Below are positions 12,191 to 26,372 of a stretch of DNA of 64,000 bases, piece by piece; within the stretch, counting starts at the first letter, position 1, and the number at the start of each line of letters is the position of its first letter. The notes beneath the pieces are model-generated. The model was given only the letters and a program-made list of their open reading frames with translations. It did not search any database and was not told where the DNA came from. Origin of the DNA: Escherichia phage EdH4; the sequence record MK327930.1. One strand, written 5' to 3'. Position numbers and translations under genes: made by a program.

Positions 12191-12213
12191 GATATGCCAG
12201 GAATTTTCAAGTA

Positions 12214-12543
12214 TCAGTTGTCTTTGTTTTTAGGTTTGTACATGCGCAGAGGTATGGTCTTTGTAACATTCCATTTCCTCAACCCTTCCCAGCTCCAGTT
12301 GTGGGCGTGGTATCCGGTTATGCATGCACTACTGGAGTGATCGTAAGCATAAGAGAACGCTAAGCGCACCAGGTGGGGCCAGTCCTTCCATGGTTGTGGA
12401 CCGTAAGCTTTTCTCCAACACCGACACAAACTAAATGTCTCAAGGATAGGAAGGATAACAAACCCATACACTGTCACCAAAATAGCCAGTGCAATGATTG
12501 TCAGGAATACATACCCTGCAGTTGAAATGATGATCTCTGTCAT
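12214..12543 (-). CDS. Membrane protein
   Basis: 109-aa ORF with N-terminal TM helix IISTAGYVFLTIIALAILVTVYGFVILPIL. Confidence 0.55.
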   Translation of the reverse strand: MTEIIISTAGYVFLTIIALAILVTVYGFVILPILETFSLCRCWRKAYGPQPWKDWPHLVRLAFSYAYDHSSSACITGYHAHNWSWEGLRKWNVTKTIPLRMYKPKNKDN

Positions 12544-12737
12544 TTGTCCTCCCCTTTCTTACGAATATAGATGTGAGATCCTGCCTGTATATAAATTTCT
12601 CGACCATCTTCTGCAAAGATATGAAATACACGATCACCTTCGTACTCGATACGAGATATTTTCATAATGGTCTTTCCACCTGGGATACGGATCTCGTCCC
12701 CCACAGCGATGTTCCATGCAGATTTAAGCTTAAACAT
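12540..12737 (-). CDS. Hypothetical protein (start trimmed to an internal Met)
   Basis: The track ORF overlaps the upstream gene by 74 nt; the internal ATG removes the overlap. Confidence 0.45.
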   Translation of the reverse strand: MFKLKSAWNIAVGDEIRIPGGKTIMKISRIEYEGDRVFHIFAEDGREIYIQAGSHIYIRKKGEDK

Positions 12738-12975
12738 CTGCACCTTCCTTTGGGAGCTCGAACTCTGGCATAGCCATATACGCCACAACAGGGTTGTAAT
12801 CAAAGTAGAAATGACCGTTAATTATCCCAGTTTTGTGAGCATAGTCACCAGATCCTGCAAGAACAACCTCGCAAACTCCGAAATCAACCTTGCCATTCTC
12901 ATCTGCCATGGCTACAATATACTTTCCTAGAGGCATGTTTTTAACGCCGTCTACAAATGTCCACCCTTTGTTCAT
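12730..12975 (-). CDS. Hypothetical protein
   Basis: 81-aa ORF. Confidence 0.5.
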   Translation of the reverse strand: MNKGWTFVDGVKNMPLGKYIVAMADENGKVDFGVCEVVLAGSGDYAHKTGIINGHFYFDYNPVVAYMAMPEFELPKEGADV

Positions 12976-12996
12976 AACTTTATCTCCTGGACTTTC

Positions 12997-13329
12997 TTAA
13001 GGTAACCAGTAAACAATTTCGCCTTTCAGTTCCATGTCGTTACCGACATAGATTTTCCAGCCATCCATTTTAGCCACTGCAGGAGTGAAGTCCGAAGAAC
13101 CACTAACCTCTTTCCAAGTCCCGTAGTCAGGTTGCCAGATATAGAATCCACCTTCCTTGTCCCATGCTCCATATACCACATCGAGCAGGTTGCCCATTGC
13201 AACAATAGTAGGCCGTGGGAATAATACATCTACAGATGCACCACAATTTCTGGTAGATTTTAAATTACAATCCCAAAAGATGTCTGCCAGTGTGGCGGCA
13301 ATAGCTTTACGTCTTTCCAATGTTACCAT
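12997..13329 (-). CDS. Hypothetical protein
   Basis: 110-aa ORF. Confidence 0.55.
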   Translation of the reverse strand: MVTLERRKAIAATLADIFWDCNLKSTRNCGASVDVLFPRPTIVAMGNLLDVVYGAWDKEGGFYIWQPDYGTWKEVSGSSDFTPAVAKMDGWKIYVGNDMELKGEIVYWLP

Positions 13330-13339
13330 GGCACGATAC

Positions 13340-13531
13340 TCACTTGTTGTTAAGAAGTTCTAAAACTTTCTGTTTTACTTTGTCAAGGTCTGTGGATTCA
13401 AAAACTGTACGATATCCCCAACTTTGCCCATAGGAGTGACTGCAATCCCCGTAGCACCATTGCTCAATTTGATAGTATTCAAGGAACGGGTGCTGTCTAA
13501 CTATGATACCATCCCGGTTAAAAATTACCAT
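13340..13531 (-). CDS. Hypothetical protein
   Basis: 63-aa ORF. Confidence 0.5.
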   Translation of the reverse strand: MVIFNRDGIIVRQHPFLEYYQIEQWCYGDCSHSYGQSWGYRTVFESTDLDKVKQKVLELLNNK

Positions 13532-13594
13532 AATACATCACCCTCTGTTAGTTTATGCGTATATTATACACTGCAGTTTTCAGATGTCAACCTC

Positions 13595-13789
13595 TTACAG
13601 ATTGCTCCAATACAATCGGCATTTACATTTTGGGCAATGAGGTTCTTTTATGTAGTAACCGTCAGTCTTTGGAACACTTTTTGGTGCAGTTTTAAGATTG
13701 TACCTGGTAAAACATCGGAAGCAGGTTACCTCTCCCACCTGTTGATCGTTGATCCACTCACCGGAGTAAAGTTCTTTCTTGTTTCTCAT
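13595..13789 (-). CDS. Small zinc-ribbon protein (CxxC...CxxC)
   Basis: Start trimmed to ATG with a GGGAGAG RBS; CFRCF...CPKCKC. Confidence 0.45.
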   Translation of the reverse strand: MRNKKELYSGEWINDQQVGEVTCFRCFTRYNLKTAPKSVPKTDGYYIKEPHCPKCKCRLYWSNL

Positions 13790-14015
13790 AATTCTCTCCC
13801 AAATCCTCTGCAATCTTATACCAAAATCTCCAGCCAGAAAGCACATGGGAACACTTTGAGGATTGAATCTTTACTTGGCTCGGAAGTTCTTTTTCCGTAT
13901 GGTAGGTAGAAATACCCTCCTGCAGATTCGAATATAGCTCCTTCGGTTGTATCTACCACAGCAAGAATTAAGATTTTAGTCTCCACAGTGCTCTCCTCTC
14001 TTAGTTGTCGTGGAA

Positions 14016-14044
14016 ACTATATCACCTCAGAAGATGGTCGTCAA
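14016..14044 (-). promoter_or_regulatory. Sigma70-like promoter TTGACG-N17-TATAGT
   Basis: Immediately downstream of the macrodomain gene stop. Confidence 0.4.
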
Positions 14045-14499
14045 CACTTTTTGTACTCCACCACGACAATATCTATGTCGAAAGTGGCAAGGTTAATAAC
14101 GTCCTCTACGTGTTCCCACTTCAAACCGCCTATGCCGCACCCGATCTTAGGGATGTAGAATGGTAAAGTCGATCCGCTGAATACTTCATTGACTAGCTCA
14201 AAGCCTTTCAGGATTGAGAAATACTCAGCATTAGGTCCTGGGTAGAACTGGGTATATAGATTGATTCCGTAGACAATACCTATCGGAGATAAGTGCTCCC
14301 ATCGGGAGAACGCACCCAGTTTACTTAGGCAACCGTATCTAGTCTCTTTGTCGGCTGACAGTGCTTGAGGAAACTCACGGGCAATCTGTTTTGCTATACC
14401 CTTGCCCATTGTGTGGAAGCAGTTACAACCGTGGATCAGGTGACCAGCACCGCTCTTAAAAAGGGAGATTAAATCTCCCTCTACAGTATCAATAATCAC
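14041..14499 (-). CDS. Macrodomain protein, TARG1/OARD1-like (putative ADP-ribose hydrolase)
   Basis: GAGHLIHGCNCFHTMGKGIAKQIAREF and PKIGCGIGGLKWEHVEDVI match recalled TARG1 blocks (LAHCISEDCRMGAGIA; MPRIGCGLDRLQWENV); start trimmed to a GTG overlapping the upstream stop. Confidence 0.6.
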   Translation of the reverse strand: MIIDTVEGDLISLFKSGAGHLIHGCNCFHTMGKGIAKQIAREFPQALSADKETRYGCLSKLGAFSRWEHLSPIGIVYGINLYTQFYPGPNAEYFSILKGFELVNEVFSGSTLPFYIPKIGCGIGGLKWEHVEDVINLATFDIDIVVVEYKKC

Positions 14500-14914
14500 G
14501 GTAAGCCAGCTCCTCTTCCGCAATTTCAAAAAACTCAGTCCAGCACTGTGGCATATTGGAGTTACCGAAGTGGCTTTCATAGTAAAGGTTCTTACCGCTA
14601 GGAAGGTAGAAATCTGTTACCTCATAAAATCCACAATCGTCGCACTCACCTTCTTCAAACTTGGCCTTAACCTTAATACCGAGGAAGGTGAAAAGTTTAT
14701 GGACATCTTCAGTTTCGAACTCCCAGGGAATGTTGTTTTCCGCATCGGTGTAGAACTGGATCAGCAGACCATTGTCCAGTTTACCAAAATACTCTGTGAA
14801 GTAACTTCCTTCCCAGAAATCTTTATGACAAATAATATCCATGCGTTTGCCCATAATAATGGTGTGAGCGTTTTGGGCATCGTCACGAATCAGTTTTGGC
14901 ATTTCATAGATCAT
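14489..14914 (-). CDS. Hypothetical protein
   Basis: 141-aa ORF, translationally coupled to the macrodomain gene. Confidence 0.55.
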   Translation of the reverse strand: MIYEMPKLIRDDAQNAHTIIMGKRMDIICHKDFWEGSYFTEYFGKLDNGLLIQFYTDAENNIPWEFETEDVHKLFTFLGIKVKAKFEEGECDDCGFYEVTDFYLPSGKNLYYESHFGNSNMPQCWTEFFEIAEEELAYRDY

Positions 14915-14982
14915 CTTAGTTCTCCGGGTTCAACAGGTGGTGGTGCTACAGGAAGATCATAAAACATGGCTATCACAGTCTC

Positions 14983-15180
14983 TTACACAGGAATTGCTTC
15001 AAATAGACCGTTATCTATACCGTCCTTCAGATAGAGATTATATTCTATATCGGTATCTGTATAAAGGGCAGCATCCAGCATTCTATCTGTGAGTCCATCC
15101 ATCGGGTGGAGAAACCACCACCCACGCCAGTCAAAGTAACAGCCTGGTGCATCTTCTCTTACACGGATTCGATAAATCAT
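14983..15180 (-). CDS. Hypothetical protein
   Basis: 65-aa ORF. Confidence 0.45.
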   Translation of the reverse strand: MIYRIRVREDAPGCYFDWRGWWFLHPMDGLTDRMLDAALYTDTDIEYNLYLKDGIDNGLFEAIPV

Positions 15181-15276
15181 GGGCAGTGGCCTCCTGTTAG
15201 TTATACATCCCAGTTTTCTTCGTTCATCACGTCCTCCCGTTCTATGAAGTTATAATTGCACACCTTTCAATCCGTG

Positions 15277-15693
15277 TCAACAGAAAACTTCAACAAATTC
15301 TTCCACAGTTTTAATGTCGTGGGAAAAAGGTTTACGGCTATAACGGGCAATAGCACTATCAACCACCGCCCGGTACTCCAAATCTTCAGAATATTTCATG
15401 AAGCATTGTAGCGTCTCTGGGCAGATAGCTAAATAGCTCCACCACCCCTCTTCAGATTGGTAGTCGAATCCCATACTCTCCAACCATGAAGCATATACGT
15501 CTGCACCCTCAAGCCAGTGAGTGTTTTCATCCAGGAACTTGTTAACAGACATGTGGGCTTCCAAGCATTTATCCAACTCTTTTCCGTTAACCAGCCACGC
15601 ACTGACCGTGGCGCATCCAAGGTCTACAGATTGAGTTGACAGGTTGTATTGGTCATAGTTCTCAGGCTTAACAATGATATCTTCTAATGTCAT
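15277..15693 (-). CDS. Hypothetical protein
   Basis: 138-aa ORF with a GGAG RBS. Confidence 0.55.
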   Translation of the reverse strand: MTLEDIIVKPENYDQYNLSTQSVDLGCATVSAWLVNGKELDKCLEAHMSVNKFLDENTHWLEGADVYASWLESMGFDYQSEEGWWSYLAICPETLQCFMKYSEDLEYRAVVDSAIARYSRKPFSHDIKTVEEFVEVFC

Positions 15694-15712
15694 TTTTCAG
15701 ATCTCCTTATAC

Positions 15713-15740
15713 AAAAATGCCCCACCCTTTCGGGCAGGGC
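15713..15740 (-). terminator. Rho-independent terminator after the SSB-like gene
   Basis: Hairpin gccccaccctttcgggcagggc plus T-run on minus; the same 22-nt hairpin recurs at 25850-25871. Confidence 0.65.
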
Positions 15741-15755
15741 TATGTTAACTAAATG

Positions 15756-16982
15756 TTAAAATGGGATGTCATCATCAAAGACGTACTGTGCTGGATTCTG
15801 ATCCATCGGGTCATCTTCCTCATCATTTACAGGAGGGGCGTCTACAGTGTTTTGCTGTGGAGCGGCTTCCTGTTTGGCAGCTTGAGGTTCTTGATGGTCA
15901 GTGGACTCAGCACCGTTCTTGATCCAATCGTACAACGGCTCAGCCAGATTAGTCAAGACATCTTTTGCTTCTGCAGTAATTGCCACTGCAAAATCATCAA
16001 CTTTCGTTTTCTTGTCAATACGGCGACAAGCGTTCAACACCGCATTACCGACACTGGCACCTACTTCATCTTCAGTTCGGTTGGTGGCTTGAGCATACTC
16101 TTTCTTAAGCTCAATGGTGACTACGTGCAGTGTTTTAGCCACGCCCAGTGGGTCGTCTACCTTAAACCCGCGATCCAGGATGATCTGCAACGCATTGATG
16201 CTATGCCCCGTTTCCACACCGATAGGGTCGTAAGAGGATTTACGCTTGCCACCAGAGCCTTGAGTGCCGTTCTCTGCCTTAGGAGGATAGGCCTTGAAAC
16301 CACTGATAATGTTTCCGGTGTCTTTGTCAACAATGGCTGCAACACGACCACCTACCACCAGGTCTTTAAGCTGCTCATCAGTTACAACCATAGCACCTTC
16401 GCCAATCTTGTGGTCATTAACAGTAACCACGTTGCCAACAATCTGAGTCACATCACCATAGATGCGTAAAACGTCCTGATTGGCATTCTGCTGAGGTTTC
16501 TGCTTCTGGCCTTGTGATTGTGCACCTTGTTGCTGTTTTTGCTGCTGAGTCGCTGCTGGAGCCTCTCCTGCACCCAGCTTAACCATCTTAGCCAGTGAGC
16601 CCTTGTAATAGGTCTTACCGTTATGCTCGTTTGCCTTCAAAGGTATATTTACGATCCATCCTGGCGTTACGGTTTCCCACTTGTCATCAATCTTAACAGA
16701 GACAGAGTCTTGATGACCTGGTTTAAGCAGCTTATCACCCATGCTGATCCAGACTTCTTCACCACCTTGAAGCAGGTTATCAGAGGAATCCAGTTCAGAA
16801 ATCAGTAAAGAGATGGTGTGGCTGGATTCAATTTTCTTACCTTGCCACACAGTGGTTTTAATACCTGTTGTAGGATCAGCACCTTTGATAGGCTTGATGC
16901 TAACACGTTTAATCATGCCGTGAGCCAGTAAAACAGTTTCACGCGGATTCATTGGGTTAGCGAATTGTTGAATAACGCTCAT
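15756..16982 (-). CDS. Single-stranded DNA-binding-like protein with SSB-type acidic C-terminal tail
   Basis: C-terminus ...DDDIPF is identical to the E. coli SSB tip; Q-rich linker QQQKQQQGAQSQGQKQKPQQ; 408 aa. Confidence 0.6.
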   Translation of the reverse strand: MSVIQQFANPMNPRETVLLAHGMIKRVSIKPIKGADPTTGIKTTVWQGKKIESSHTISLLISELDSSDNLLQGGEEVWISMGDKLLKPGHQDSVSVKIDDKWETVTPGWIVNIPLKANEHNGKTYYKGSLAKMVKLGAGEAPAATQQQKQQQGAQSQGQKQKPQQNANQDVLRIYGDVTQIVGNVVTVNDHKIGEGAMVVTDEQLKDLVVGGRVAAIVDKDTGNIISGFKAYPPKAENGTQGSGGKRKSSYDPIGVETGHSINALQIILDRGFKVDDPLGVAKTLHVVTIELKKEYAQATNRTEDEVGASVGNAVLNACRRIDKKTKVDDFAVAITAEAKDVLTNLAEPLYDWIKNGAESTDHQEPQAAKQEAAPQQNTVDAPPVNDEEDDPMDQNPAQYVFDDDIPF

Positions 16983-17347
16983 TATTTGTCTCCTTGTTCT
17001 TCGTTAGTGCTTGCCGTGTGTGCGAACCCTGCTTGAATTAATTTGTCCTGAACTTGAGCCAACAGGCCCATTGCAAAACTTGTAGTCCCAGAGAGGGCCA
17101 TCAGCATATCTCGTTGTTGAGCTACCCAACCTAAGGCATAGTCCAAACGACGATATTTTTCTTCTTCACGCAAAGCTTGGAATAATTGTTCAGCCTCTGG
17201 CTGTTGTGTAAGCTCCTGAAGTCTTCCCATGAAAGAAGAAAGCACTAGCAGAAGAGACACTTGATCTTTACTTAACCCTAAGAAAAATTCTTGAGGTTGT
17301 TCTTGCTCGTTCATCGCAACCGACGTTTGATCGTTCATTTGTTCCAT
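16982..17347 (-). CDS. Hypothetical protein
   Basis: 121-aa ORF, start overlaps the upstream stop. Confidence 0.55.
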   Translation of the reverse strand: MEQMNDQTSVAMNEQEQPQEFFLGLSKDQVSLLLVLSSFMGRLQELTQQPEAEQLFQALREEEKYRRLDYALGWVAQQRDMLMALSGTTSFAMGLLAQVQDKLIQAGFAHTASTNEEQGDK

Positions 17348-17430
17348 TATGGAATCTCCGATTTTATTTGAACAACATAGAAGGAGACACTATTTTAGCA
17401 TCCCCTTCTGTAAATTACAATAGGTATTTG

Positions 17431-17676
17431 TTAGCCAATCACTTCGAAAGTTCCCCAATTCCCGTCCAGCAGGCAGGTGATCGGATCCCCATCGTCGTCA
17501 AAGATTTCAAAGTTTTCAGCATCCAGGATGTGGCCCTCGAACACAATACTTTCGTCGCCACCACCAGAAATAACAGCGTATTCCTTACCTTGAGTCAAGT
17601 TTTGACACCCTTTGCCACCAAAACCTACTTCAACACAACGTACTTTCTGTCCTGCGCGAGCAACTACTTCAGTCAT
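17431..17676 (-). CDS. Hypothetical protein
   Basis: 81-aa ORF. Confidence 0.5.
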   Translation of the reverse strand: MTEVVARAGQKVRCVEVGFGGKGCQNLTQGKEYAVISGGGDESIVFEGHILDAENFEIFDDDGDPITCLLDGNWGTFEVIG

Positions 17677-17693
17677 CTTAAGGTCTCCTGATA

Positions 17694-18014
17694 TTAATCG
17701 TCAAGTTCAAAATAGATTTTAACAGCTTCATCAAAGATTGGAATCCCGATGTTGTTGATAAGCTGCCAAACTACCATATCTTTACCTGGGTCTGGGAGAA
17801 TGTCAACCTTTCTCCATGCGCTGTATATCCAGTTTGGACCACCTTCTGCACTAACTGGCAGATTTTCACCAGCCTCCTGCAGATACTTATACAGCAAAAG
17901 ATATTCTGGATACTCTAGAACACTGTCCTCTGTAGTATATAGCAGTTCACGGTATACTTTTAAGAACCCTGCTGGGGTGATGTTTTCAGTCTTCATTTGC
18001 TGCTTCTCCTGCAT
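17694..18014 (-). CDS. Hypothetical protein
   Basis: 106-aa ORF. Confidence 0.5.
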   Translation of the reverse strand: MQEKQQMKTENITPAGFLKVYRELLYTTEDSVLEYPEYLLLYKYLQEAGENLPVSAEGGPNWIYSAWRKVDILPDPGKDMVVWQLINNIGIPIFDEAVKIYFELDD

Positions 18015-18375
18015 TCATCAGATCTGCCATAGCGTCACCCACGAAGAGAACAACCACATCGTTGACCGCGTCAGCATCATCTTTGTTGACGTTGCTGAAT
18101 TTAGGACACACAGCAATAATCATATAGACACCGTTACCAACCTGAACTGTCCGTGTGGTGCACATCATGGCGGTATTTGTGCCATCTTTGAAGGCGAAGC
18201 CTTGAAGACGCTCCTCTAAAGTGTTACCGGTAGATTTCAGAAGCGCCAGCTCGTCCAAGGCATAGATGATATCTCCGGAAGTTAGTGTTGCCTTGCCATC
18301 AGACACCATAATCACTCCATCAGCACCGTCAAGCTTAGAGGCTTCAAAGATATCGATATCCCAAATATTTTTCAT
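17986..18375 (-). CDS. Hypothetical protein
   Basis: 129-aa ORF. Confidence 0.55.
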   Translation of the reverse strand: MKNIWDIDIFEASKLDGADGVIMVSDGKATLTSGDIIYALDELALLKSTGNTLEERLQGFAFKDGTNTAMMCTTRTVQVGNGVYMIIAVCPKFSNVNKDDADAVNDVVVLFVGDAMADLMNAGEAANED

Positions 18376-18692
18376 TACTCTTCCTCGTCTAAGGAGTTGA
18401 AGATTTCACCGAAGTATTCTAAGACTTCTAGCTCCCGTGTGGTGCAGAAAACACAGTCACCGTTGTCATCCTCGATAACGGCCTCTTTACCCAGTACATC
18501 TACTTCAAGTTTATCGTTCAACAGGACGGCCCCTGTGTAAACTTTGTCAGCTGTGCAGTCCCGAAAAGCAGAGTCCTTCTCTAGATAGTCTGGCTTAACC
18601 TTGGCTTTAATTCGTTGATATTGTTTGGTCATTGCTGTGGTCCCCTTTCGTTTTGATAGGACCATTGTATTAGGTCCTATCGCTGTTGTCAA
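18375..18692 (-). CDS. Small Cys-containing protein, paralogue family 1 (member a)
   Basis: Shares AF(R/K)DCT...D(N/E)GD(C/S)V(F/W)CT with the adjacent gene. Confidence 0.55.
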   Translation of the reverse strand: MTTAIGPNTMVLSKRKGTTAMTKQYQRIKAKVKPDYLEKDSAFRDCTADKVYTGAVLLNDKLEVDVLGKEAVIEDDNGDCVFCTTRELEVLEYFGEIFNSLDEEE

Positions 18693-18695
18693 GTA

Positions 18696-18950
18696 TTAAT
18701 GTTCAGTTTTTACAAAAACTACTTCGTTAACAGTGCACCAGACAGAGTCTCCTTCATCATCTTTAAAGGTAAGGCACTGTGCTGAGTTTTCCAGCTCATC
18801 AAGCTCTTCTTGTGATAGAGGGGCCCCTTCTTCCAAAAGGGCTTTTACCAAAGGGTTCTCACAAAACTCTGCTTCATAAGTAGCGCCAAGTGTGCAATCT
18901 TTAAAAGCTCGGTCGTTTGCAACGCATTCTGGTTTCAACATGATTTTCAT
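18696..18950 (-). CDS. Small Cys-containing protein, paralogue family 1 (member b)
   Basis: Paralogue of CDS 18375..18692. Confidence 0.55.
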   Translation of the reverse strand: MKIMLKPECVANDRAFKDCTLGATYEAEFCENPLVKALLEEGAPLSQEELDELENSAQCLTFKDDEGDSVWCTVNEVVFVKTEH

Positions 18951-19026
18951 CTTAGAGGTCTCCTTAATTATTTAACAATCAATACTCTGTTTGTGAGGAG
19001 TATCTTACATCTAACCTTACTTCTTG

Positions 19027-19425
19027 TCAACGACTATTTTCAATCATCCACCAAGGATCAAGGTAGGTTTGTTGACTTTTTGCCCACTGGCAAACATCTT
19101 CGTACATCTGAACTTCGTTTTCAGTCAGTTCACGAATAGGCTCATCTATACCCTCATTTTTGTGGTAATCCCAGTCGGCATCGATTTCCCACAACCATGA
19201 CTTGTTGTCACCACGCTTACGCACACAGAAGTCACCGGGACGGCCTGCCAATGCATTTAAGAACTCATTCTCCGCTCGCTCCTGAAGAATACTAAGGAGC
19301 AAAACGTTGGAGCATGACCGTAAAATATGCTTCAGCTCACAATCATCAATCTCAACTTCAATACGTTGTTTGACTGTGTGGGTACCTTTTACTAACATCC
19401 TACCTCCTCTAAACGAACTCTGCAA
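19027..19425 (-). CDS. Hypothetical protein
   Basis: 132-aa ORF. Confidence 0.5.
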   Translation of the reverse strand: MQSSFRGGRMLVKGTHTVKQRIEVEIDDCELKHILRSCSNVLLLSILQERAENEFLNALAGRPGDFCVRKRGDNKSWLWEIDADWDYHKNEGIDEPIRELTENEVQMYEDVCQWAKSQQTYLDPWWMIENSR

Positions 19426-19603
19426 GAGTTGTGTTGTTCACTGCACCGCAGTAAATGGAGTATCCCAGCCCATTAGAGTGCAGAAACCACGGCGTGCCGA
19501 AATTATCTTTCACGTAGACATCACCGTTGCTTGTAAAGGGCCAATATTCTTCACCAAGGGTGAAATACCTACTCATACCCTCAGCCAGATACTTTACTTT
19601 CAT
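19409..19603 (-). CDS. Small protein, paralogue family 2 (member a)
   Basis: Motif G-x-(P/I)-W-F-(L/I)-(S)-H shared with the next two genes. Confidence 0.5.
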   Translation of the reverse strand: MKVKYLAEGMSRYFTLGEEYWPFTSNGDVYVKDNFGTPWFLHSNGLGYSIYCGAVNNTTLAEFV

Positions 19604-19827
19604 AGGTCCTCTTCAACAGCTACAAACTTGGCAAGCAGGGTGGTTCCGTAGATATGATACTCACCGTTTGCCAGATGGGAGATAAACCAGGCAATCCCCT
19701 CCTCGTCTTTAATCATCTTGTTTGCACGATCTTTATCGTAATAAACCTCGTAGGTCTTTCCTTCTTTAAAGAAGGACAGGTCTGTCATCTTTTCTTCTAC
19801 AAAAGTAGCTTTAACCAAAGTTGTCAT
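19600..19827 (-). CDS. Small protein, paralogue family 2 (member b)
   Basis: EEGIAWFISHLANGEYHIYG; overlapping stop/start with its neighbours. Confidence 0.5.
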   Translation of the reverse strand: MTTLVKATFVEEKMTDLSFFKEGKTYEVYYDKDRANKMIKDEEGIAWFISHLANGEYHIYGTTLLAKFVAVEEDL

Positions 19828-20198
19828 TGATCGGTCTCCTTCTTGTTAAGTCTGAATACTGCAATAATAGCATTCCCAAGGTGCAGTGTCAAATCATTTC
19901 CAAGATACCACAACATTCCACGGTCATCTTTAATGAAAGGGTAACAATCCGGTGCCTTCCAGACATTGTACACCTTGCCAACCTGAAAGAAATCAGGCCC
20001 TGTTGGGATTTTGGTGCCAGGCCACACTTGAGATACCTGAACACACTCCACCTGCATAATAACAGGGATAGTCATGGATGTAAATGTTTTTGTTGGTTCT
20101 ACTACCATAAAAGTCTCCTCTTTACTCAACAACACTTCCATGTGTTGATAGTTTACATTAGTGACAATCACCCCAATTACGACCACACAAGTATTCAC
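19824..20198 (-). CDS. Small protein, paralogue family 2 (member c, longer)
   Basis: C-terminal DDRGMLWYLGNDLTLHLGN resembles the two preceding genes. Confidence 0.5.
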   Translation of the reverse strand: MNTCVVVIGVIVTNVNYQHMEVLLSKEETFMVVEPTKTFTSMTIPVIMQVECVQVSQVWPGTKIPTGPDFFQVGKVYNVWKAPDCYPFIKDDRGMLWYLGNDLTLHLGNAIIAVFRLNKKETDQ

Positions 20199-22935
20199 CT
20201 GTGATCTGGAACGGGACTCCCATCATTTTAGAAGCTTGCCAGAAGCAATGCACCACCATTTCACCCACAGGGCTCCAGATAAGTTCAAGCTTTCCGTCAT
20301 CGTTCAGGATAGGATCGTACACCGTGTTTCCGTCTCTGTCAACCACTTCGTTTCCGTCCTCATCCTTGCGTGCCTTTTTGTACTTATGACCGTCGAACAC
20401 ATGAAGTTTGGCTTCCTGCTCTGCCTTAAATGCTTCCAGTTCTTCAATTGTGTCGAAGGTGTACACAGTCTTATACTTCGGTGTGTCAGGCACTTGAAGC
20501 TGATATTCGTCATGGTAATAGATAATACGGCGAACACCTTCATCGTACCACCCACGCTTCACCATTTGGTGGTGCATGAGTATCCCAACTAAGTCACACA
20601 ACGATGCACCACCATTTTGTTGGTATGCATTAAGTAAAGAGTGTTTAGATCGGGTCCAGATGGCATGACCATCAAAAGAGTAGATAAACTTCTTACCCGT
20701 TGCTTCCCAGAATTTCTCCAGATCTTCTTTACGCCCCTTAAGACCGGGGTTGGCATCCCAAAGTGCATCGATTACCCTTTGTCCCAACTCTGGAGAGATA
20801 TCCAGCATGTCTGCAACTTTATCTTTTTGTGCCCCGTACATAACCCCATACGTGATAGGTTTACCGTCGTTACGAGACACCTCTCTACCTGCTACTTTTG
20901 TATATGCCTCAGCATTGTTTTGGTGTGCGTCCCCGTTACTTACAACATCGTAATACAGGCCGTTGTCGAACTCAAAGGCACCCCAAGCCCCGATAAGCTG
21001 CTCTAAGTTGGACCCGTCAATACCGATCTCAAAGTATCCTGGAGGAACACCCCACAGACTACGCATCTCTTTACCCATAACCACTTTAGGAGATGGTTTA
21101 GGCATGTTTGCACAAATACTGTGTTTCTGTCGGGAAGTGTTTGTTAATCCAGAACTTTTAGCAGGAAGCTTATGGTCAATCTTCAAACGTGGGTGATTAA
21201 GAAGACCAGTATCAACCTTATCCTCCTTGATTGGATCAAGGACCGATCTGCGGTTTCGCAATGATAACCACAAGACGATATCTTTAGCCATCTCTCCGTT
21301 CAATTTTTCAAGATTTGGGCATAGGTGTCCAAACGTATCTTTCAGTTGCGGAGAAGTAATAAGTGCCCTGGCTTTTCTACGTATTTTCCCGAACACTTCC
21401 TTTTTAATCCTTTCGGAGTTAGGAAAGCTTCGGAACTTGTGCACGGTTGTCTGAAACTTAGCATCAGTTTTGTTCCAGAAGTTGATAATCAGGTCACAAT
21501 ACTCTGACTCTAAAAGCTCGTCCATGTATGCATATACTCGTGCATCAACATCTGCATCAGGTAGAGCTTTCTTCTTGCTGTCTTTAGTTACATCCTTAGT
21601 TCTCCACATTGTCGGAAGCCAACCAGCACTGATCAGGTATCGCTTAATGTCGTCCTGATTGCTGATTTTCATAGGTATCTTGCAGTCAGGCATTCGCTTC
21701 TGCTGTAGATCACTTATTGCCTGATCCATCAGCTCTTTAGGTAAAGGTTGTGGTGTGGAAGTGCCCTTAATATAGCCTCTCAAGAAAGCAGCCATCTTAT
21801 CAGGGTCTTTGCAGCCCATCTCTTCACACCATTTTATCCCCATCTTACTGACATCTCCTGTGGAGGTAAATGCTCGCTTAGGTGGGGCTTTGAAATCTAA
21901 AGCGCTCATGTCCACAGGATAGCCAAGCTTATCTTTTAACCATTTCCAACCATTATTGGAGATTGTCCCATCTTGGTTAAACGGCTTTTCAGGGAACTTG
22001 GGCCGCTGAGATATTGACAACTCTTTTAAAGGGAGTTGAGGTTCAACACGATCAGCGATCTCTTTCATCCACGCATCGCAACGGTCACGTAAAGCAATAG
22101 CCCCATCTATGTCGAAATACACACCCTGACGGGCCTGCAGCTCCATCAGGAAGTGCTGCAGCATGCCTCGGCGTAATGCGTTCTTCCAGGTGATCTTCTT
22201 GAACCCTTTCGGCTTCTCTTTGGCAGGATCGTACATAAAGTTCTGCATGTCAGATTTGCCGTAGAATACACCTTTTGATTCCGCTACCAGCTCTTTCCAG
22301 AGCAGCTCCTGGATGATAACGTCCTCGAATACACGATCCACATACTTCCACAACGGAAGATCGCGCCAGTCATCAATTTGAACTTTCTGGTTACCAAGTG
22401 CGTAGCCCCATGCCATAAGGCCGTGAGGACCAACAGGCTGCATTTTCTTAGTAACCGGGTTGAATACGGAGTCAGGACAACCTTTTGGTAAAGGGCGATC
22501 AGGCCATAAGATTCGGCTCATCGCCAACGTATCAAACAGGTTAACCTGGTGGTCGTTGATAGTCCCCATGCATTTAGGATCACGGAACATATCAAAATGA
22601 ATACCGGATAATCTTTCCATCAGCATAAAGTCATAACTGTAGCAGTTATGGCAGTTCAAAGCTGTTGGTGACCAGTCGGAATTGCCTGTGAGCCAACCTT
22701 CCAACTCCGAAAAATCTGCTATGCGAACTTCAAAATCTTTATAAAGAGTTTTCTTTGCCAGAATGAAGTTCTTAGCCTTTTCTATATCCTCCTCGGAGTA
22801 GTGTGTGCGGTCATTTAGAGGAAGGAACAGCATAAAACGGTTCTTATTCAGCTCTTTAAACAGACCGCAGTGATAATAAAGATCTGGGTCTTCCAGCAAA
22901 CCGGATGACTCAAAATCGAAAGACCACATGCTCAT
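20158..22935 (-). CDS. DNA polymerase, family A, with 3'-5' exonuclease domain
   Basis: Exo I FDFESSG; motif A DGSNLEQLI; motif B RNDGKPITYGVMYGAQ; motif C YYHDEYQL; 925 aa. Confidence 0.9.
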   Translation of the reverse strand: MSMWSFDFESSGLLEDPDLYYHCGLFKELNKNRFMLFLPLNDRTHYSEEDIEKAKNFILAKKTLYKDFEVRIADFSELEGWLTGNSDWSPTALNCHNCYSYDFMLMERLSGIHFDMFRDPKCMGTINDHQVNLFDTLAMSRILWPDRPLPKGCPDSVFNPVTKKMQPVGPHGLMAWGYALGNQKVQIDDWRDLPLWKYVDRVFEDVIIQELLWKELVAESKGVFYGKSDMQNFMYDPAKEKPKGFKKITWKNALRRGMLQHFLMELQARQGVYFDIDGAIALRDRCDAWMKEIADRVEPQLPLKELSISQRPKFPEKPFNQDGTISNNGWKWLKDKLGYPVDMSALDFKAPPKRAFTSTGDVSKMGIKWCEEMGCKDPDKMAAFLRGYIKGTSTPQPLPKELMDQAISDLQQKRMPDCKIPMKISNQDDIKRYLISAGWLPTMWRTKDVTKDSKKKALPDADVDARVYAYMDELLESEYCDLIINFWNKTDAKFQTTVHKFRSFPNSERIKKEVFGKIRRKARALITSPQLKDTFGHLCPNLEKLNGEMAKDIVLWLSLRNRRSVLDPIKEDKVDTGLLNHPRLKIDHKLPAKSSGLTNTSRQKHSICANMPKPSPKVVMGKEMRSLWGVPPGYFEIGIDGSNLEQLIGAWGAFEFDNGLYYDVVSNGDAHQNNAEAYTKVAGREVSRNDGKPITYGVMYGAQKDKVADMLDISPELGQRVIDALWDANPGLKGRKEDLEKFWEATGKKFIYSFDGHAIWTRSKHSLLNAYQQNGGASLCDLVGILMHHQMVKRGWYDEGVRRIIYYHDEYQLQVPDTPKYKTVYTFDTIEELEAFKAEQEAKLHVFDGHKYKKARKDEDGNEVVDRDGNTVYDPILNDDGKLELIWSPVGEMVVHCFWQASKMMGVPFQITGEYLCGRNWGDCH

Positions 22936-22993
22936 ATACAGTTCTCCTTAAAGGGGAGGCGGTTGTACTACCCCTCCCACTCTTGGTTAAACA

Positions 22994-25072
22994 TTAAAAA
23001 GGCGTTTCATCGTCCTCAAAACCAGGGACAGGGTCAGAGGATGGATCATCGTACTGTAGGTCTTCTTGTGTGTCAACAGGCTTAACAGTAGGAGTTACAA
23101 CCTTATCAGCCACAACCTTGCCCATAGGTGTTTCTACAACTGCATGCTCCTGATCCTCAAACATAGCCTGGGGTCTCCAAACAACCTCCCCACCTTCTCC
23201 GTCTGTAAACATCTGCATTTCTTTGTCCCAGTACCAATTACTGGCATCATGGAACTTACCTGTATGCGGATCCATAACTAAAGTGTCAGCAATACCTAAA
23301 GTTTTTGCTGGACGGTTTTTAAGACCTACCAGACGGACACGTCCACGAGAACGATCCACCATTTCTTCGGCCTCGACACCTATGACTACCCAACTCAACT
23401 GTTCAAGCCCAGCCGATCCTCGCAAATTCTCTTTTCGCACAGGATACCAGAAAGGTAATGGGTTACCATCCTTGTCCTTAGGGGGCACAATCTCTGTACG
23501 TTTGAGGTGAGCGATCACCAAGATAAACACGTTAAACTGCTTACAAAACGCAGCCAGTTGGGTCATAGCCATGTCCAGTTCTTTTCGCTCATCCTTAACA
23601 TTAAGCCCTGAAATTACCATGGACAGGTGATCCAGCACAATATAACGACAATGGTACAGGCAAACCATTTGCTTAAGCTTGGTAATCAACTCGTCCACTG
23701 GAATAGACCCGAAATGTTTGAACACTTTGATTTTTCCAGCTTTTGCCCATGATTGGTGAATCTCTGCGTGTTCTTGATCAGTTAAAAACTGGCTAGGATC
23801 TTCAACAAACTCTTTAACATCAAACCCTAACTGGTTTGCATACAAGGAGTTAATTGCTTCCTCTGGGTCCTCCTCAAGATGAATCATGCATAGACGATCA
23901 TCCTCTTCGTAATCATCAGCCTTTGGACATGTCGGGTCCATTAGGTATCTTGCAATACAGTGTTCCAGTTTTTTAGCTACAGTTGTTTTACCGCCCCCTG
24001 ATGGACCTGTAAGCATTACGAGTGTCCCTTTGTGCAAGCCTTTTAGCATTTTTTGCAGTTTTGGGAACTCTGCGCTGATATCTACCCCGTTGGAAGTCTT
24101 TTTCCGCAAAGATTCGATAGAGAAGTCTTCTAAATCCGATACAGCATCCGGTACATACTTAACAGGATGCCGGAACATGTTTACAATATCTTCCAGCTTT
24201 TTAGCCTTCAGCATGTCACGGATATCTTTTACACCGTCAGGATCGTTTACTTCACCAGGGTACTCTACGTGGTAAACGTTATCAGCCATCAAAAATGCTG
24301 CGATATTGTGCGTAGCCTCAACACCTTTAATGACGTGTTTTTGCTTCTCTACCTCGTTAGCTGCATCGTTATCCATTGCCAGCACAACTGTTCCATAGCT
24401 ACGGATAAACTTCTCATTGTTTGCAAAAGTATCTACTGCGTTTGCACATCCACAGTTAATTCCAACAAAAGGTAGGCAGGGTTTTCCTGCCAGATCACCA
24501 CCGTTGATAACTGCATCGATCCCGTCCTGTACCTCTTTAGCCCACTGCTTCACCTTTGCCGGGGCTTTAGCGTTGGTGAGAATCCCTTTTACTTGTATCT
24601 GATATGCAGCCTGCCATGCTGCAATAACATCACCTTCTCCCTCGCAAACGTTAATCTGCTTACGGTTGTTGGAAGATGCACACAGCTTTTGCCCAAACAT
24701 CTGGGAGTTAGCCTTTACTATGCCAACAACGGAGAAATGGCCCCTTTGCTCTTTAGGAATCGTCCAGTCACGCTTTTTGAAACCTGACAGATTTCCGTAG
24801 CGGTCGTAATATGGGAAATATGTTGCAGTGACTGTCACACCGTCTTCTTGGGACAATGCTGATCGCACACCAAAATATTGTGCAGCCATCAGACCGATAT
24901 TTTGTTGTGGGACAGGGACAATTTTAGTATTTTCTAAAACAGTCTCTACAGTTTCAACTTCTTTTTCATCACGATAGTCTCGTTTCACACTCCCCCCACT
25001 TTTATACTTAGTTGCTTTCGGGTTTGGCTCACCGAAACGGTTGTATGCAGATGCCATAAATTTACTTCCCAT
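22994..25072 (-). CDS. Bifunctional primase-helicase (TOPRIM plus DnaB-like helicase)
   Basis: TOPRIM CEGEGD and VLAMDNDAAN; Walker A GPSGGGKT; acidic C-terminal tail ...FEDDETPF. Confidence 0.85.
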   Translation of the reverse strand: MGSKFMASAYNRFGEPNPKATKYKSGGSVKRDYRDEKEVETVETVLENTKIVPVPQQNIGLMAAQYFGVRSALSQEDGVTVTATYFPYYDRYGNLSGFKKRDWTIPKEQRGHFSVVGIVKANSQMFGQKLCASSNNRKQINVCEGEGDVIAAWQAAYQIQVKGILTNAKAPAKVKQWAKEVQDGIDAVINGGDLAGKPCLPFVGINCGCANAVDTFANNEKFIRSYGTVVLAMDNDAANEVEKQKHVIKGVEATHNIAAFLMADNVYHVEYPGEVNDPDGVKDIRDMLKAKKLEDIVNMFRHPVKYVPDAVSDLEDFSIESLRKKTSNGVDISAEFPKLQKMLKGLHKGTLVMLTGPSGGGKTTVAKKLEHCIARYLMDPTCPKADDYEEDDRLCMIHLEEDPEEAINSLYANQLGFDVKEFVEDPSQFLTDQEHAEIHQSWAKAGKIKVFKHFGSIPVDELITKLKQMVCLYHCRYIVLDHLSMVISGLNVKDERKELDMAMTQLAAFCKQFNVFILVIAHLKRTEIVPPKDKDGNPLPFWYPVRKENLRGSAGLEQLSWVVIGVEAEEMVDRSRGRVRLVGLKNRPAKTLGIADTLVMDPHTGKFHDASNWYWDKEMQMFTDGEGGEVVWRPQAMFEDQEHAVVETPMGKVVADKVVTPTVKPVDTQEDLQYDDPSSDPVPGFEDDETPF

Positions 25073-25826
25073 TAATTCTGCTCCTTACTACAGGCTCGTT
25101 TGCTAAGAATACGGCTTTTGCCCAGCCACGTGGTGTGAGACTTCGAATCATCTTCGTTCTTGCACTCTTTCCACCCAGCTTGGCGTGTTGCATAGAATAC
25201 CCGCTAACCGCGTCAACTATTTGCGGGACAGGTTTTGTGGGCGGGATTATAAATCCATTACCTATCCAGCCGCAAGTTATTTTTGGATAGGCATCACGTG
25301 GAGCTATAAATTCAGGAAACCAAGGGTTTACATCATCCTCCGGTAAATACCCACCATAGTCAGAAGGATGAAAACGGTAATCAGGTTTGCGCCACAGTGT
25401 GGACATAACACCCACAGGATTCTCTACATGCCACGGGCAATCGTAAATCTCTCCCAGCTCTTCCGCAACCCGAGCATCCTTTACGGCATTAATTTGGATC
25501 AGAGGGTCCTTAGCCAGCTTTTTCTTAAAATGTGCAGCACCTGATACCGCTAAATGCGTGCACGGAGGAAATGCAAGAATAAAGTCTGGAGCTGGGTACA
25601 TGCAAAAAGTTTCCTGAGGGAACCATGGGTCAATCCAATAATCCACATAGTGAATGTTGGGATGATCGGTTATAACCTCTGCATAACTGCCGTGATCAGC
25701 GCCTTCTGCATTAAAGCACAGGCACAGGTACCCAGCTTTTGCCCAGTCAATGACTGCACCACCAGACCCGTCAAATAGACTCCACACAACACCTTTGTGG
25801 TAGTGTTCTTTGTAGATAAATTTCAA
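25062..25826 (-). CDS. Putative DNA (cytosine-5)-methyltransferase-like protein
   Basis: Motif I SLFDGSGG; motif IV FPPCTHLAVSG; motif VI HVENPVG; start trimmed to a TTG with an AGGAG RBS because the track start lies inside the terminator hairpin. Confidence 0.5.
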   Translation of the reverse strand: MKFIYKEHYHKGVVWSLFDGSGGAVIDWAKAGYLCLCFNAEGADHGSYAEVITDHPNIHYVDYWIDPWFPQETFCMYPAPDFILAFPPCTHLAVSGAAHFKKKLAKDPLIQINAVKDARVAEELGEIYDCPWHVENPVGVMSTLWRKPDYRFHPSDYGGYLPEDDVNPWFPEFIAPRDAYPKITCGWIGNGFIIPPTKPVPQIVDAVSGYSMQHAKLGGKSARTKMIRSLTPRGWAKAVFLANEPVVRSRINGK

Positions 25827-25844
25827 TTTGCTGTCTCCTAATGC

Positions 25845-25871
25845 AAAAAGCCCCACCCTTTCGGGCAGGGC
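25845..25871 (-). terminator. Rho-independent terminator (same hairpin as 15719-15740)
   Basis: gccccaccctttcgggcagggc plus T-run on minus. Confidence 0.65.
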
Positions 25872-25877
25872 CTAGTG

Positions 25878-26360: not shown

Positions 26361-26372
26361 AACACTCTCTCC

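What the first reader, a model, noticed from the sequence alone, without database searches (positions are those of the whole stretch)
18375..20198. Two further tandem paralogue clusters among the early genes
Genes 18375..18692 and 18696..18950 share AF(R/K)DCT and D(N/E)GD(C/S)V(F/W)CT motifs. Genes 19409..19603, 19600..19827 and 19824..20198 share a G-x-x-W-(F/Y)-(L/I)-x-H/N core (GTPWFLHSNG, GIAWFISHLANG, GMLWYLGNDL) and are joined by 4-nt overlaps. Together with the 40.6-kb array, three separate loci have undergone local gene duplication.
Basis: seen in the sequence. Interest (0 to 1): 0.55.

Follow-up and report, generated by a model that had tools for sequence, protein, structure and literature searches.

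The report
Duplicated small beta-barrel genes, rV5-like phage
Two runs of neighbouring small genes next to the DNA polymerase gene of an rV5-like E. coli phage are real, ancient gene duplicates, and one run is predicted to adopt the same rare beta-barrel shape as Gp54 of phage Bas11, a small phage protein known to set off a bacterial immune sensor.

Summary
The window is a Vequintavirus (rV5-like coliphage).

- **Cluster A** (rV5 ORF220 and ORF219) is a clear paralogue pair: BLASTP E=1e-8, shuffle z=10.7.
- **Cluster B** (ORF224, 223, 222) is three translationally coupled paralogues with ATGA overlaps: B2-B3 z=9.0, B1-B2 z=6.8. An HMM built only from foreign repeat units ranks all three as the top hits among the window's 525 ORFs (E=2e-9 to 3e-7).
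- **Gene starts.** B3 starts at 20108.

**New findings:**
- B belongs to an un-named "FFTxGKEY...DDxGD" module superfamily, which also occurs as 2-5 tandem repeats inside larger phage proteins.
- Gene 17431..17676 is a fourth member, and 44447..44911 is a probable fifth.
- A is an SH3-like barrel with a helical insert. Its link to B is only suggestive (P~6e-4).
- Both clusters are fixed in all of the ~115 Vequintaviruses and absent from that locus in four sister genera.

Function is inferred, not shown: accessory host- or defence-binding modules. The result is ordinary in kind and moderately interesting in detail.

The parts
19824..20108 (-). B3 (rV5 ORF224 orthologue), 94 aa. It carries an N-terminal ~35-aa extension followed by the B-type beta-barrel module.
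   Evidence: SD AAAGAGGAGA + ATG. phrog_12922 covers residues 1-94. External-repeat HMM E=1.4e-8. hhalign against external repeats P=1e-8. dN/dS 0.01.
19600..19827 (-). B2 (ORF223), 75 aa, the central member of cluster B. Its start overlaps the B3 stop (ATGA).
19409..19603 (-). B1 (ORF222), 64 aa, the most divergent of the three. Its start overlaps the B2 stop (ATGA).
   Evidence: phrog_12802. SW z=6.8 vs B2. External-repeat HMM E=3e-7. P0060 repeat 3 hits phrog_12802 at 3.6e-6. dN/dS 0.11.
19027..19398 (-). X (ORF221), 123 aa. An unrelated gene that separates the two clusters.
   Evidence: phrog_6273 only. No similarity to A or B.
19002..19030 (-). Sigma-70-type promoter-like site upstream of A2 (TTGACA-17-TAAGAT). 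It corresponds to the promoter P220 annotated in rV5.
18696..18950 (-). A2 (ORF220), 84 aa: an SH3-like barrel with a helical hairpin inserted between beta2 and beta3.
18664..18692 (-). Promoter-like site TTGACA-17-TACAAT (11/12) between A2 and A1. A perfect 9-bp inverted repeat (GATAGGACC...GGTCCTATC) spans the -10 box.
18375..18632 (-). A1 (ORF219), 85 aa (or 97 aa if it starts at 18665). Paralogue of A2 without the long helical insert and with an acidic C-terminal tail.
   Evidence: phrog_11936. BLASTP E=1e-8 vs A2. Invariant D, A-F, D-C-T, Y, D-D-x-G-D-x-V-x-C-T across both orthologue sets. dN/dS 0.03.
17986..18375 (-). g17986 (ORF218), 129 aa. A possible partial relative of the A family: 'FAFKDGTNTAMMCTTRTV' compared with 'LTFKDDEGDSVWCTVNEV'. 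It shares the 12-nt word TGCACCACACGG (18151-18162) with A1 (18435-18446).
   Evidence: hhalign P=0.002-0.006. It is the best non-self hit of the A-family HMM, but only at E=0.07. A natural in-frame A1::g17986 fusion occurs at the shared word. Membership is not established.
17431..17676 (-). g17431 (ORF216), 81 aa. A fourth, non-adjacent member of the B superfamily (GQKVRCVEV...LTQGKEYAV...IFDDDGD...FEVI).
   Evidence: Its family, phrog_4927, is hit by the multi-repeat protein P0063 at 5.7e-10. hhalign against external repeats P=5.3e-5 over 54 columns.
17379..17409 (-). Intrinsic-terminator-like hairpin that closes the small-gene block. It is annotated as a terminator in phage Murica.
44447..44911 (+). 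ORF of 154 aa (probably 135 aa; phrog_15992) whose N-terminal half is a probable fifth copy of the B-type module.
   Evidence: External-repeat HMM E=0.007. hhalign P=5e-5 over 49 columns, the fourth best of 87 small ORFs. PHROGs.

Best explanation
The block between the family-A DNA polymerase gene and a terminator at 17.4 kb is a genus-specific accessory slot. It is filled with small (64-129 aa) cytoplasmic beta-barrel proteins that arose by old local duplications.

Cluster B (B3-B2-B1) is read as one translationally coupled unit. It encodes three diverged copies of a ~60-aa module with the pattern (F/W)(F/W)-T-x-G-K-x-Y-x-V ... K/I-x-D-D-x-G-x-x-W. The predicted structure is the six-stranded SH3-derived barrel seen in Gp54 of phage Bas11. 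A fourth copy (g17431) lies 1.7 kb downstream. The same module occurs singly or as 2-5 tandem repeats in proteins of other phages.

Cluster A (A2-A1) encodes two copies of a five-stranded SH3-like barrel with a helical insertion and an invariant Cys pair. It is probably a distant branch of the same superfamily.

Shown here: paralogy, coding constraint, fixation in the genus, predicted fold, and superfamily membership of B.

Inferred: these are non-structural binding modules that act on host or host-defence proteins (host takeover or counter-defence) and may in turn be sensed by immunity proteins, as Gp54(Bas11) is by CapRel(SJ46). On this reading, duplication followed by divergence lets one phage address several targets.

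My confidence is about 0.97 for paralogy, about 0.8 for the Gp54-like fold of B, about 0.5 for A being a distant relative of B, and about 0.35 for the host/defence-interaction function.
For: Paralogy.

Real genes: strong SD sites and dN/dS of 0.01-0.18 for every gene.

Fixed order pol-B3-B2-B1-X-A2-A1 in seven genomes, and presence in about 115 Vequintavirus records.

Superfamily: exhaustive HMMER finds repeat proteins P0060-P0065. They bridge the PHROGs of B1, B2, B3 and g17431. BFVD lists many small uncharacterised phage proteins with TM 0.7-0.8.

Accessory nature: neither family is found downstream of pol in Seunavirus, Mydovirus, Henunavirus or Avunavirus. A natural A1::g17986 fusion deletes 284 bp in frame.

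Functional analogy: Gp54(Bas11) is a 66-aa protein, non-essential in the laboratory, that binds CapRel(SJ46) directly. Its authors suggest it may inhibit another defence system (PMC11578894).
Against: - No sequence-level link between B and Gp54/phrog_7421. The fold match could reflect convergence on a small barrel.
- Only B2 and A2 were modelled, and three of the five A2 models were poor.
- The A-B link is weak: P about 6e-4 with family profiles, and not significant with single sequences.
- No experimental or expression data exist for any of these genes.
- Strong purifying selection and no copy-number variation within the genus are not what a fast arms-race locus usually shows.
- The position between polymerase and SSB-like genes equally suits a replication-linked role.
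Confidence: 0.6

Rival explanations
1. The proteins are replisome or DNA-metabolism accessory factors. On this view the small SH3/Tudor/KOW-like barrels bind DNA, RNA, the phage polymerase/helicase/SSB, or host replication proteins. They would have been duplicated to make a hetero-oligomer, which would fit the translational coupling of B3-B2-B1.
For: The block lies directly downstream of the primase-helicase and PolA genes, and upstream of genes that one annotator calls SSB-like. ATGA coupling suggests equimolar co-production. Purifying selection is strong and copy number is fixed. One distant relative fuses two modules to a DUF3310 / nucleotide-kinase-like domain. SH3-like barrels of RecD and retroviral integrase appear among the fold hits.
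Against: Neither family is present at this locus in four sister genera that share the same polymerase and helicase, so they are not part of the conserved replication core. The closest structure, Gp54(Bas11), is dispensable in the laboratory. A natural fusion that removes parts of A1 and g17986 exists in a contig whose neighbouring genes are intact.
Confidence: 0.22
2. The similarities are chance or compositional, or some of the ORFs are not genes.
For: The proteins are short. The direct B1-B3 comparison is weak (z=3.0, phmmer E 0.3-0.9). B1-B2 by hhalign has only 27% probability with shallow profiles.
Against: Shuffle z-scores are 6.8-10.7, with 0/500 shuffles reaching the observed score. An HMM that contains no window sequence picks B2, B3 and B1 as the top three of 525 ORFs. 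Each gene has its own PHROG, an SD site, and dN/dS well below 1.
Confidence: 0.02
3. They are minor virion or injected proteins rather than intracellular accessory factors.
For: There are weak hits to phrog_14592, 'virion structural protein' (E=0.055 for B2). A Vequintavirus protein with the same predicted fold is labelled 'putative minor capsid protein' in phage isim.
Against: The hits are far from significant, and such labels are untested. The genes sit in the replication block under sigma-70-type promoters, away from the structural module.
Confidence: 0.04

Closest known systems
Gp54 of Escherichia phage Bas11 (PDB 9AXB; phrog_7421), a direct trigger of the fused toxin-antitoxin defence CapRel(SJ46) (Zhang et al., Nature 2024, PMC11578894)
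   Different: Identity is 14%, and no profile-level sequence similarity was found. In the model, B2 has a short helix (residues 12-17) between beta1 and beta2; the paper describes that segment of Gp54 as a prominent loop that refolds on CapRel. Here the gene is triplicated and translationally coupled, and the host phage is a myovirus rather than a Drexlerviridae member. CapRel activation is untested, and even close Gp54 homologues fail to activate it.
Un-named phage repeat module of phrog_3523 / 4927 / 3249 / 10169 / 16833 (no Pfam family). Examples are P0060 (4 repeats), P0064 (5 repeats), P0065 (2 repeats + DUF3310), and the Enterococcus/Lactobacillus phage proteins P0066-P0080
   Same: The shared sequence signature is (F/W)(F/W)TxGKEYxV ... 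hxDDxGD ... Fxhh, about 60 aa long. B1-B3 and g17431 match profiles of these repeats significantly.
   Different: In the window the module is carried by separate small genes rather than by repeats within one polypeptide. The 'LKCV' first strand of the foreign repeats is poorly conserved in B1-B3.
SH3-like small beta-barrels (eukaryotic SH3, Mib-Herc2 domain, retroviral integrase C-terminal domain, RecD SH3)
   Different: The resemblance is at fold level only, with 2-16% identity. A2 has a ~25-residue helical hairpin inserted between beta2 and beta3, and an invariant Cys pair that is not a feature of SH3 domains.
Tandem paralogue arrays of small accessory genes in large lytic phages (general phenomenon; my own background knowledge)
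   Same: Adjacent, same-strand, diverged small genes of unknown function under early or middle promoters.
   Different: This is nothing distinctive in kind. The specific family and fold assignment are what is new here.

Membership tests
Gp54(Bas11)-like six-stranded beta-barrel | Small six-stranded barrel that superposes on PDB 9AXB | tested here: met
Gp54(Bas11)-like six-stranded beta-barrel | Detectable sequence homology to Gp54 / phrog_7421 | tested here: not met
   The superfamily profile does not retrieve 9axb from PDB sequences at E<=10. Gp57(Bas10) scores 0-2 bits against the B, external and combined HMMs. It hits only phrog_7421, and B proteins do not hit that PHROG.
Gp54(Bas11)-like six-stranded beta-barrel | [quoted passage not shown] | not testable with these tools
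   This needs co-expression toxicity or binding assays. The paper reports that close Gp54 homologues do not activate CapRel, so activity cannot be inferred from fold.
Gp54(Bas11)-like six-stranded beta-barrel | Dispensable for phage growth in the laboratory | not testable with these tools
   No deletion data exist for Vequintavirus. B2 and A2 are present in all of about 115 genomes.
FFTxGKEY...DDxGD phage repeat-module superfamily (phrog_3523/4927/3249/10169) | Significant match to a profile of the module built without the query | tested here: met
   B2 2e-9, B3 1.4e-8 and B1 3e-7 among 525 ORFs. hhalign P=1e-8 to 2e-7. g17431 P=5.3e-5 over 54 columns. Caveat: the external units were themselves found with a B-family profile.
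FFTxGKEY...DDxGD phage repeat-module superfamily (phrog_3523/4927/3249/10169) | Membership of cluster A (A1, A2) | tested here: inconclusive
   The family profile against the superfamily gives P=5.7e-4, and against external repeats P=6.8e-4. Both are in a sensible register over 29-30 columns, and controls give P 0.08-0.68. Single sequences are not significant (P 0.016-0.075; HMM E 0.6-2.5). The secondary-structure order matches B2 apart from the helical insert.
SH3-like small beta-barrel fold (cluster A) | Five-stranded barrel that superposes on SH3-type domains | tested here: met
Tandem paralogue cluster produced by local duplication | Adjacent, same-strand genes with similarity above shuffled controls | tested here: met
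Tandem paralogue cluster produced by local duplication | Copy-number variation among relatives (recent or ongoing duplication) | tested here: not met
   Gene count and order are identical in seven Vequintavirus genomes, and B2 and A2 are present in about 115 records. The only variants seen are an A1::g17986 fusion, small indels in A2, and an 11-aa internal duplication in one B3 (P0056).

The most novel reading that the evidence does not exclude
The barrel of Gp54(Bas11), which its authors describe as having a very rare topology, may in fact be one of the commonest small accessory-protein folds in phages of enterobacteria and Firmicutes. The Vequintavirus block would then be an expanded battery of at least four, and perhaps seven, such modules. 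Each would be tuned to bind a different host immune sensor or host factor, acting either as an inhibitor/decoy or as the molecular pattern the sensor detects. If so, gene duplication here would be a counter-defence diversification strategy, and these genes would be a ready list of candidate triggers or inhibitors for defence systems active against rV5-like phages.
Probability: 0.2. Interest if true: 0.7.

Novelty: new member of a known kind. Interest (0 to 1): 0.4.

Why it matters
Taken on its own, a pair of paralogue clusters among small phage genes is routine. The added value is the fold assignment. It links five or six 'hypothetical' Vequintavirus genes, and a scattered, un-named module family that has no Pfam entry, to the only structurally and functionally characterised relative: a direct protein trigger of the CapRel immunity protein.

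That gives a concrete and inexpensive hypothesis for what these genes do. It suggests the Gp54 fold is widespread rather than rare. It also nominates specific genes to test in BASEL Vequintaviruses against defence-system panels.

Tried and rejected
- **Pfam scan.** Scanning all ten small proteins of the block gave nothing above threshold for A or B. Only g17694 matches DUF7238.
- **Word-indexed homology searches.** Searches with B2, with the A pair and with the superfamily alignment returned almost only orthologues at 79% identity or more, plus a few Firmicutes-phage proteins. The families are narrow at sequence level.
- **tblastn of B2 and A2 against 50,697 phage records.** This found only Vequintavirus plus one E=0.7 hit in Cronobacter phage CR9. 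That hit lies in a non-syntenic 151-aa 'membrane protein' and was not pursued.
- **P0062.** This 1743-aa beta-helix/Ig-domain protein appeared in the exhaustive search, but I left it out of the repeat set as a probable weak or spurious multi-hit.
- **Single-superfamily idea.** My first idea, that A, B and g17431 are obviously one family on the shared 'DDxGD' hairpin, was not borne out for A with shallow profiles (P=0.04). It remains only suggestive with deeper profiles.
- **Sequence bridge from B to Gp54.** A bridge through PHROGs failed, because Gp57(Bas10) hits phrog_7421 alone.
- **Other Vequintavirinae genera.** No A or B members were found downstream of pol in four other genera.
- **Non-coding features.** There are no Rfam families, no tRNAs and no DNA-level repeats between the paralogues in the region.
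- **Literature.** Searches for expression, essentiality or defence-trigger data on these Vequintavirus genes found nothing.
Full report
**Where the window comes from.** Bases 17000-23000 are 97-98% identical to rV5-like coliphages such as C15, HeinrichReichert and V5, which belong to the genus Vequintavirus. All genes of the region lie on the minus strand. They run downstream from a primase-helicase gene and a 925-aa family-A DNA polymerase gene at 20158..22935.

- ORF219 = A1
- ORF220 = A2
- ORF222 = B1
- ORF223 = B2
- ORF224 = B3

ORF221 (X, 19027..19398) sits between the two clusters.

**Checking the observation.** The quoted motifs are all present. I scored Smith-Waterman alignments against 500 shuffles for all 45 pairs among the ten small proteins of the block.
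- Three pairs stand out: A1-A2 (z=10.7), B2-B3 (z=9.0) and B1-B2 (z=6.8). None of the 500 shuffles reached the observed score for any of them.
- B1-B3 taken directly is weak (z=3.0).
- No A-B pair exceeds z=1.2.

Other tests agree:
- phmmer against all 525 six-frame ORFs of the window gives A1-A2 E~1e-6, B2-B3 E~1e-4 and B1-B2 E~0.03.
- BLASTP gives A1-A2 E=1e-8, with 30% identity over 77 residues.
- With shallow orthologue profiles, hhalign gives P=3e-6 (A1-A2), 3e-5 (B2-B3) and 7e-4 (B1-B2).
- The 4-nt ATGA overlaps at B3/B2 and B2/B1 are real.

Two gene starts need correcting.
- **B3.** It has a strong Shine-Dalgarno site (AAAGAGGAGA) before the ATG at 20108. That start gives the 94-aa protein matching phrog_12922 end to end, and it is the start used in four annotated genomes.
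- **A1.** The start is the ATG at 18632 (Murica annotation; SD AAAGGGGA), or the ATG at 18665, which overlaps the -10 box (rV5 annotation).

**Are they real genes?** Every gene of the block has a good ribosome-binding site. Summed Nei-Gojobori counts against four to six orthologues per gene give dN/dS of:
- 0.01 for B3
- 0.17 for B2
- 0.11 for B1
- 0.11 for A2
- 0.03 for A1
- 0.14 for g17431

These values indicate purifying selection on proteins. Each gene has its own PHROG of unknown function.

**Comparative genomics.**
- tblastn finds B2 and A2 in about 115 phage records, and these are Vequintavirus genomes.
- Seven genomes examined in detail share the order pol-B3-B2-B1-X-A2-A1-g17986-g17694-g17431-g16982.
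- I therefore found no copy-number variation. The duplications predate the genus.
- No DNA-level repeat survives between paralogues.
- In four sister genera with a 59-65% identical polymerase, the genes downstream of pol are different, and none matches the A or B profiles; no hit falls below E~0.01 among 638 ORFs. The genera are Seunavirus 4MG, Mydovirus BIS47, Henunavirus pEp_SNUABM_01 and Avunavirus Av-05.

The block is therefore a genus-specific accessory slot and not part of the conserved replication core.

**Widening family B.**
- The word-indexed database search with B2 returned only orthologues of 79% identity or more.
- An exhaustive HMMER search of 1.84 billion representative proteins, using a B1+B2+B3 profile, gave only 12 hits at E<1e-3.
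- The distant hits are informative. P0060 has 4 stretches, P0061 has 2, P0063 has 2, P0064 has 5 and P0065 has 2. All are tandem copies of a ~60-aa unit with the pattern hKxGDxLxC...(F/W)(F/W)TxGKEYxV...hxDDxGD...Fxhh.
- P0065 ends in a DUF3310 / nucleotide-kinase-like domain. No Pfam family covers the unit.
- A further search found single-copy versions at the N-terminus of Enterococcus and Lactobacillus phage proteins.

I then built an HMM from 15 of these foreign units only and ran it against the window's 525 ORFs:
- B2: E=2e-9
- B3: E=1.4e-8
- B1: E=3e-7
- g17431: E=0.007
- the ORF at 44447..44911: E=0.007
- A1 and A2: not significant

There is a caveat. The foreign units were themselves found with a B profile, so this test is not fully independent.

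PHROG scans close the loop:
- P0063 hits phrog_4927, which is g17431's own family, at 5.7e-10.
- P0060 hits the B1 PHROG at 3.6e-6.
- P0065 hits the B2 PHROG at 1.4e-5.

Further profile tests:
- With its orthologues, g17431 aligns to the foreign repeats over 54 columns at P=5.3e-5.
- In a scan of 87 small window ORFs against that profile, the five best are B3, B1, B2, 44447..44911 (P=5e-5) and g17431. After those, P jumps to 0.014 or worse.

Cluster B therefore belongs to a real but un-named module superfamily, with at least four and probably five members in this window.

**Fold.**

- The entry was released in November 2024. From my own knowledge, the AlphaFold2 weights predate that.

The paper behind that structure (Zhang et al., Nature 2024, PMC11578894) reports the following:
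- It binds the pseudo-zinc-finger antitoxin domain of the fused toxin-antitoxin defence CapRel(SJ46) and activates it.
- Close homologues in Bas5, Bas8, Bas10 and SECphi27 do not activate it.
- The authors speculate that Gp54 may inhibit another defence system.

I recovered the near-identical Gp57 of Bas10 from phage IsaakIselin.
- It shows only faint motif echoes of B2 (FKKG vs FKEG; GLTW vs GIAW).
- It scores 0-2 bits against my HMMs, and it hits only phrog_7421.
- The superfamily profile also fails to retrieve 9axb from PDB sequences.

The link to Gp54 is therefore structural only.

Foldseek against BFVD shows the same predicted fold (TM 0.7-0.8) in many small uncharacterised proteins of Drexlerviridae and other phages, with four hits in phage NBD2 alone. 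It also appears in Cronobacter phage CR9, in phAPEC8 and in an Enterococcus DUF3310 protein.

*A2.* The model is less secure (pLDDT 80.7; two of five models confident). Its order is beta-alpha-beta, then a helical hairpin (residues 33-56), then beta-beta-beta.
- Across A1 and A2 orthologues the invariant residues are D, A-F, D-C-T, Y, N and D-D-x-G-D-x-V-x-C-T. These include one Cys pair.

**Are A and B related?**
- With richer profiles, the A family aligns to the B superfamily at P=5.7e-4 and to the foreign repeats alone at P=6.8e-4.
- In both cases the register makes sense: F-x-DCT-x-G-x-x-Y aligns with FFT-x-GKEY, and KDDEGD aligns with I-x-DD-x-G. The helical hairpin is treated as an insertion.
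- Three control genes give P=0.08-0.68.
- The secondary-structure order also agrees.
- Single A sequences are not significant.

I rate distant homology at about even odds.

**A possible third A member and a natural fusion.**
- g17986 (ORF218) contains FAFKDGTNTAMMCTTRTV, which resembles the A hairpin.
- It is the best non-self hit of the A-family HMM, but only at E=0.07. hhalign gives P=0.002-0.006.
- A1 and g17986 share the exact 12-nt word TGCACCACACGG at the CTTR codons. A codon-shuffle test puts the chance of such a word at 0.008.
- Protein P0045 (131 aa) is an in-frame A1::g17986 fusion joined exactly at this word. It lies in a Vequintavirus contig whose gene order is otherwise intact.

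This is the only architectural variation I found. It shows that the C-terminus of A1 and the N-terminal 71 residues of g17986 can be lost together.

**Transcription signals.**
- Six promoter-like sites with 10/12 or better all lie on the coding strand. One at 19030..19002 coincides with rV5's annotated P220 upstream of A2. One at 18692..18664 lies upstream of A1.
- Others lie inside B3 and inside the polymerase gene.
- The overall count (14) is not above shuffled expectation (10.0 +/- 3.2).
- A terminator-like hairpin at 17409..17379, annotated as a terminator in Murica, closes the block after g17431.

'Early or middle' expression is plausible but unproven.

**How it most likely works.**

*Shown:*
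- Two sets of old tandem duplicates of small beta-barrel genes.
- B3-B2-B1 are translationally coupled.
- All are under purifying selection and fixed in the genus.
- They are absent from the same locus in sister genera.
- B is predicted to adopt the Gp54(Bas11) fold, and it belongs to a module family that also exists as intramolecular tandem repeats.

*Inferred:* these are non-structural binding modules for host or host-defence proteins. Divergence after duplication would widen the range of targets. Any of them could in turn serve as a pattern detected by immunity proteins, as Gp54 is.

*Main rival:* a replication-linked role, for instance a B1-B2-B3 hetero-complex that binds DNA or the replisome. 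The location, the coupling and the strong constraint all fit this reading. The lack of conservation across genera with the same replisome argues against it.

No experimental data bear on either reading.

**Verdict.** The finding is correct, and in kind it is ordinary: paralogue arrays of small accessory genes are common in large lytic phages. What it gains on inspection is a specific, testable identity.
- Cluster B, g17431 and probably one more gene are sequence-divergent relatives, at the level of predicted fold, of the CapRel trigger Gp54(Bas11).
- They also belong to a scattered, un-named phage module superfamily.
- Cluster A is an SH3-like offshoot restricted to Vequintavirus.

I score interest at 0.4 and rate the novelty as a new member of a known kind.

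Noticed in passing
Shuffle z-scores are 18 (genes 1-2), 4.3 (genes 2-3) and 7.1 (genes 3-4). They share a 'F-x-(C/P)G-x-VV' N-terminal motif that also looks like a small beta-barrel. Their relation to the A and B families was not tested with profiles.
   Followed up: partly
window 44447..44911 (+): A 154-aa ORF (phrog_15992; N-terminal part phrog_30425, C-terminal part phrog_3955) whose residues ~52-103 match the foreign repeat-module profile. The HMM gives E=0.007, and hhalign gives P=5e-5, fourth best of 87 small ORFs. It is a probable fifth copy of the B-type module, on the opposite strand 25 kb away.
   Followed up: partly
window 18655..18681 (-), between A2 and A1: A perfect 9-bp inverted repeat, GATAGGACC-(9 nt)-GGTCCTATC, spans the -10 box (TACAAT) of the 11/12 promoter-like site, and also the alternative ATG start of A1 at 18665. 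It could be an operator or an RNA hairpin affecting A1 expression.
   Followed up: no
locus L009 3001..3396 (Logan contig ERR13033386_13568); window equivalents 18435..18446 and 18151..18162: A natural in-frame fusion of A1 with g17986 (131 aa), created by a 284-bp deletion between two copies of the 12-nt word TGCACCACACGG. It occurs in a Vequintavirus contig with otherwise normal gene order.
   Followed up: yes
proteins P0056, P0042, P0037, P0046 (Vequintavirus variants): Small indel variants of the cluster genes occur in the wild. One B3 has an internal 11-aa tandem duplication (KAPDCHPFIKE/KAPNCYPFIKD). Some A2 variants have 2- or 10-aa deletions inside the helical insert. Phage JLBYU08 has an A2 with a replaced N-terminus.
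   Followed up: no
window 20158..22935 (-) and relatives: The polymerase gene is intact in this window. In many relatives it is split by homing-endonuclease insertions: HNH in HeinrichReichert, CM1, Mangalyan and Av-05, and LAGLIDADG in a Salmonella phage. rV5 annotates several small ORFs there.
   Followed up: no
locus L008 (phage IsaakIselin/Bas10) 12665..13030 (-) and 17760..17945 (+): Besides Gp57, the Gp54 homologue, Bas10 encodes two other small proteins with the 'F-K-x-GK-x-Y ... V-x-DEDGD' signature, at E=0.02-0.05 against the B and superfamily HMMs. This hints that Drexlerviridae carry both sequence types of this barrel.
   Followed up: no
window 17694..17996 (-): g17694 (rV5 ORF217) is the only small gene of the block with a Pfam match above threshold: DUF7238, E=3.4e-7.
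   Followed up: no
window 1..64000: There are no tRNA genes and no Rfam families at gathering threshold anywhere in the 64-kb window. GC skew switches sign at ~38 kb and ~44 kb, coinciding with the short plus-strand gene block at 38078..44911.
   Followed up: no
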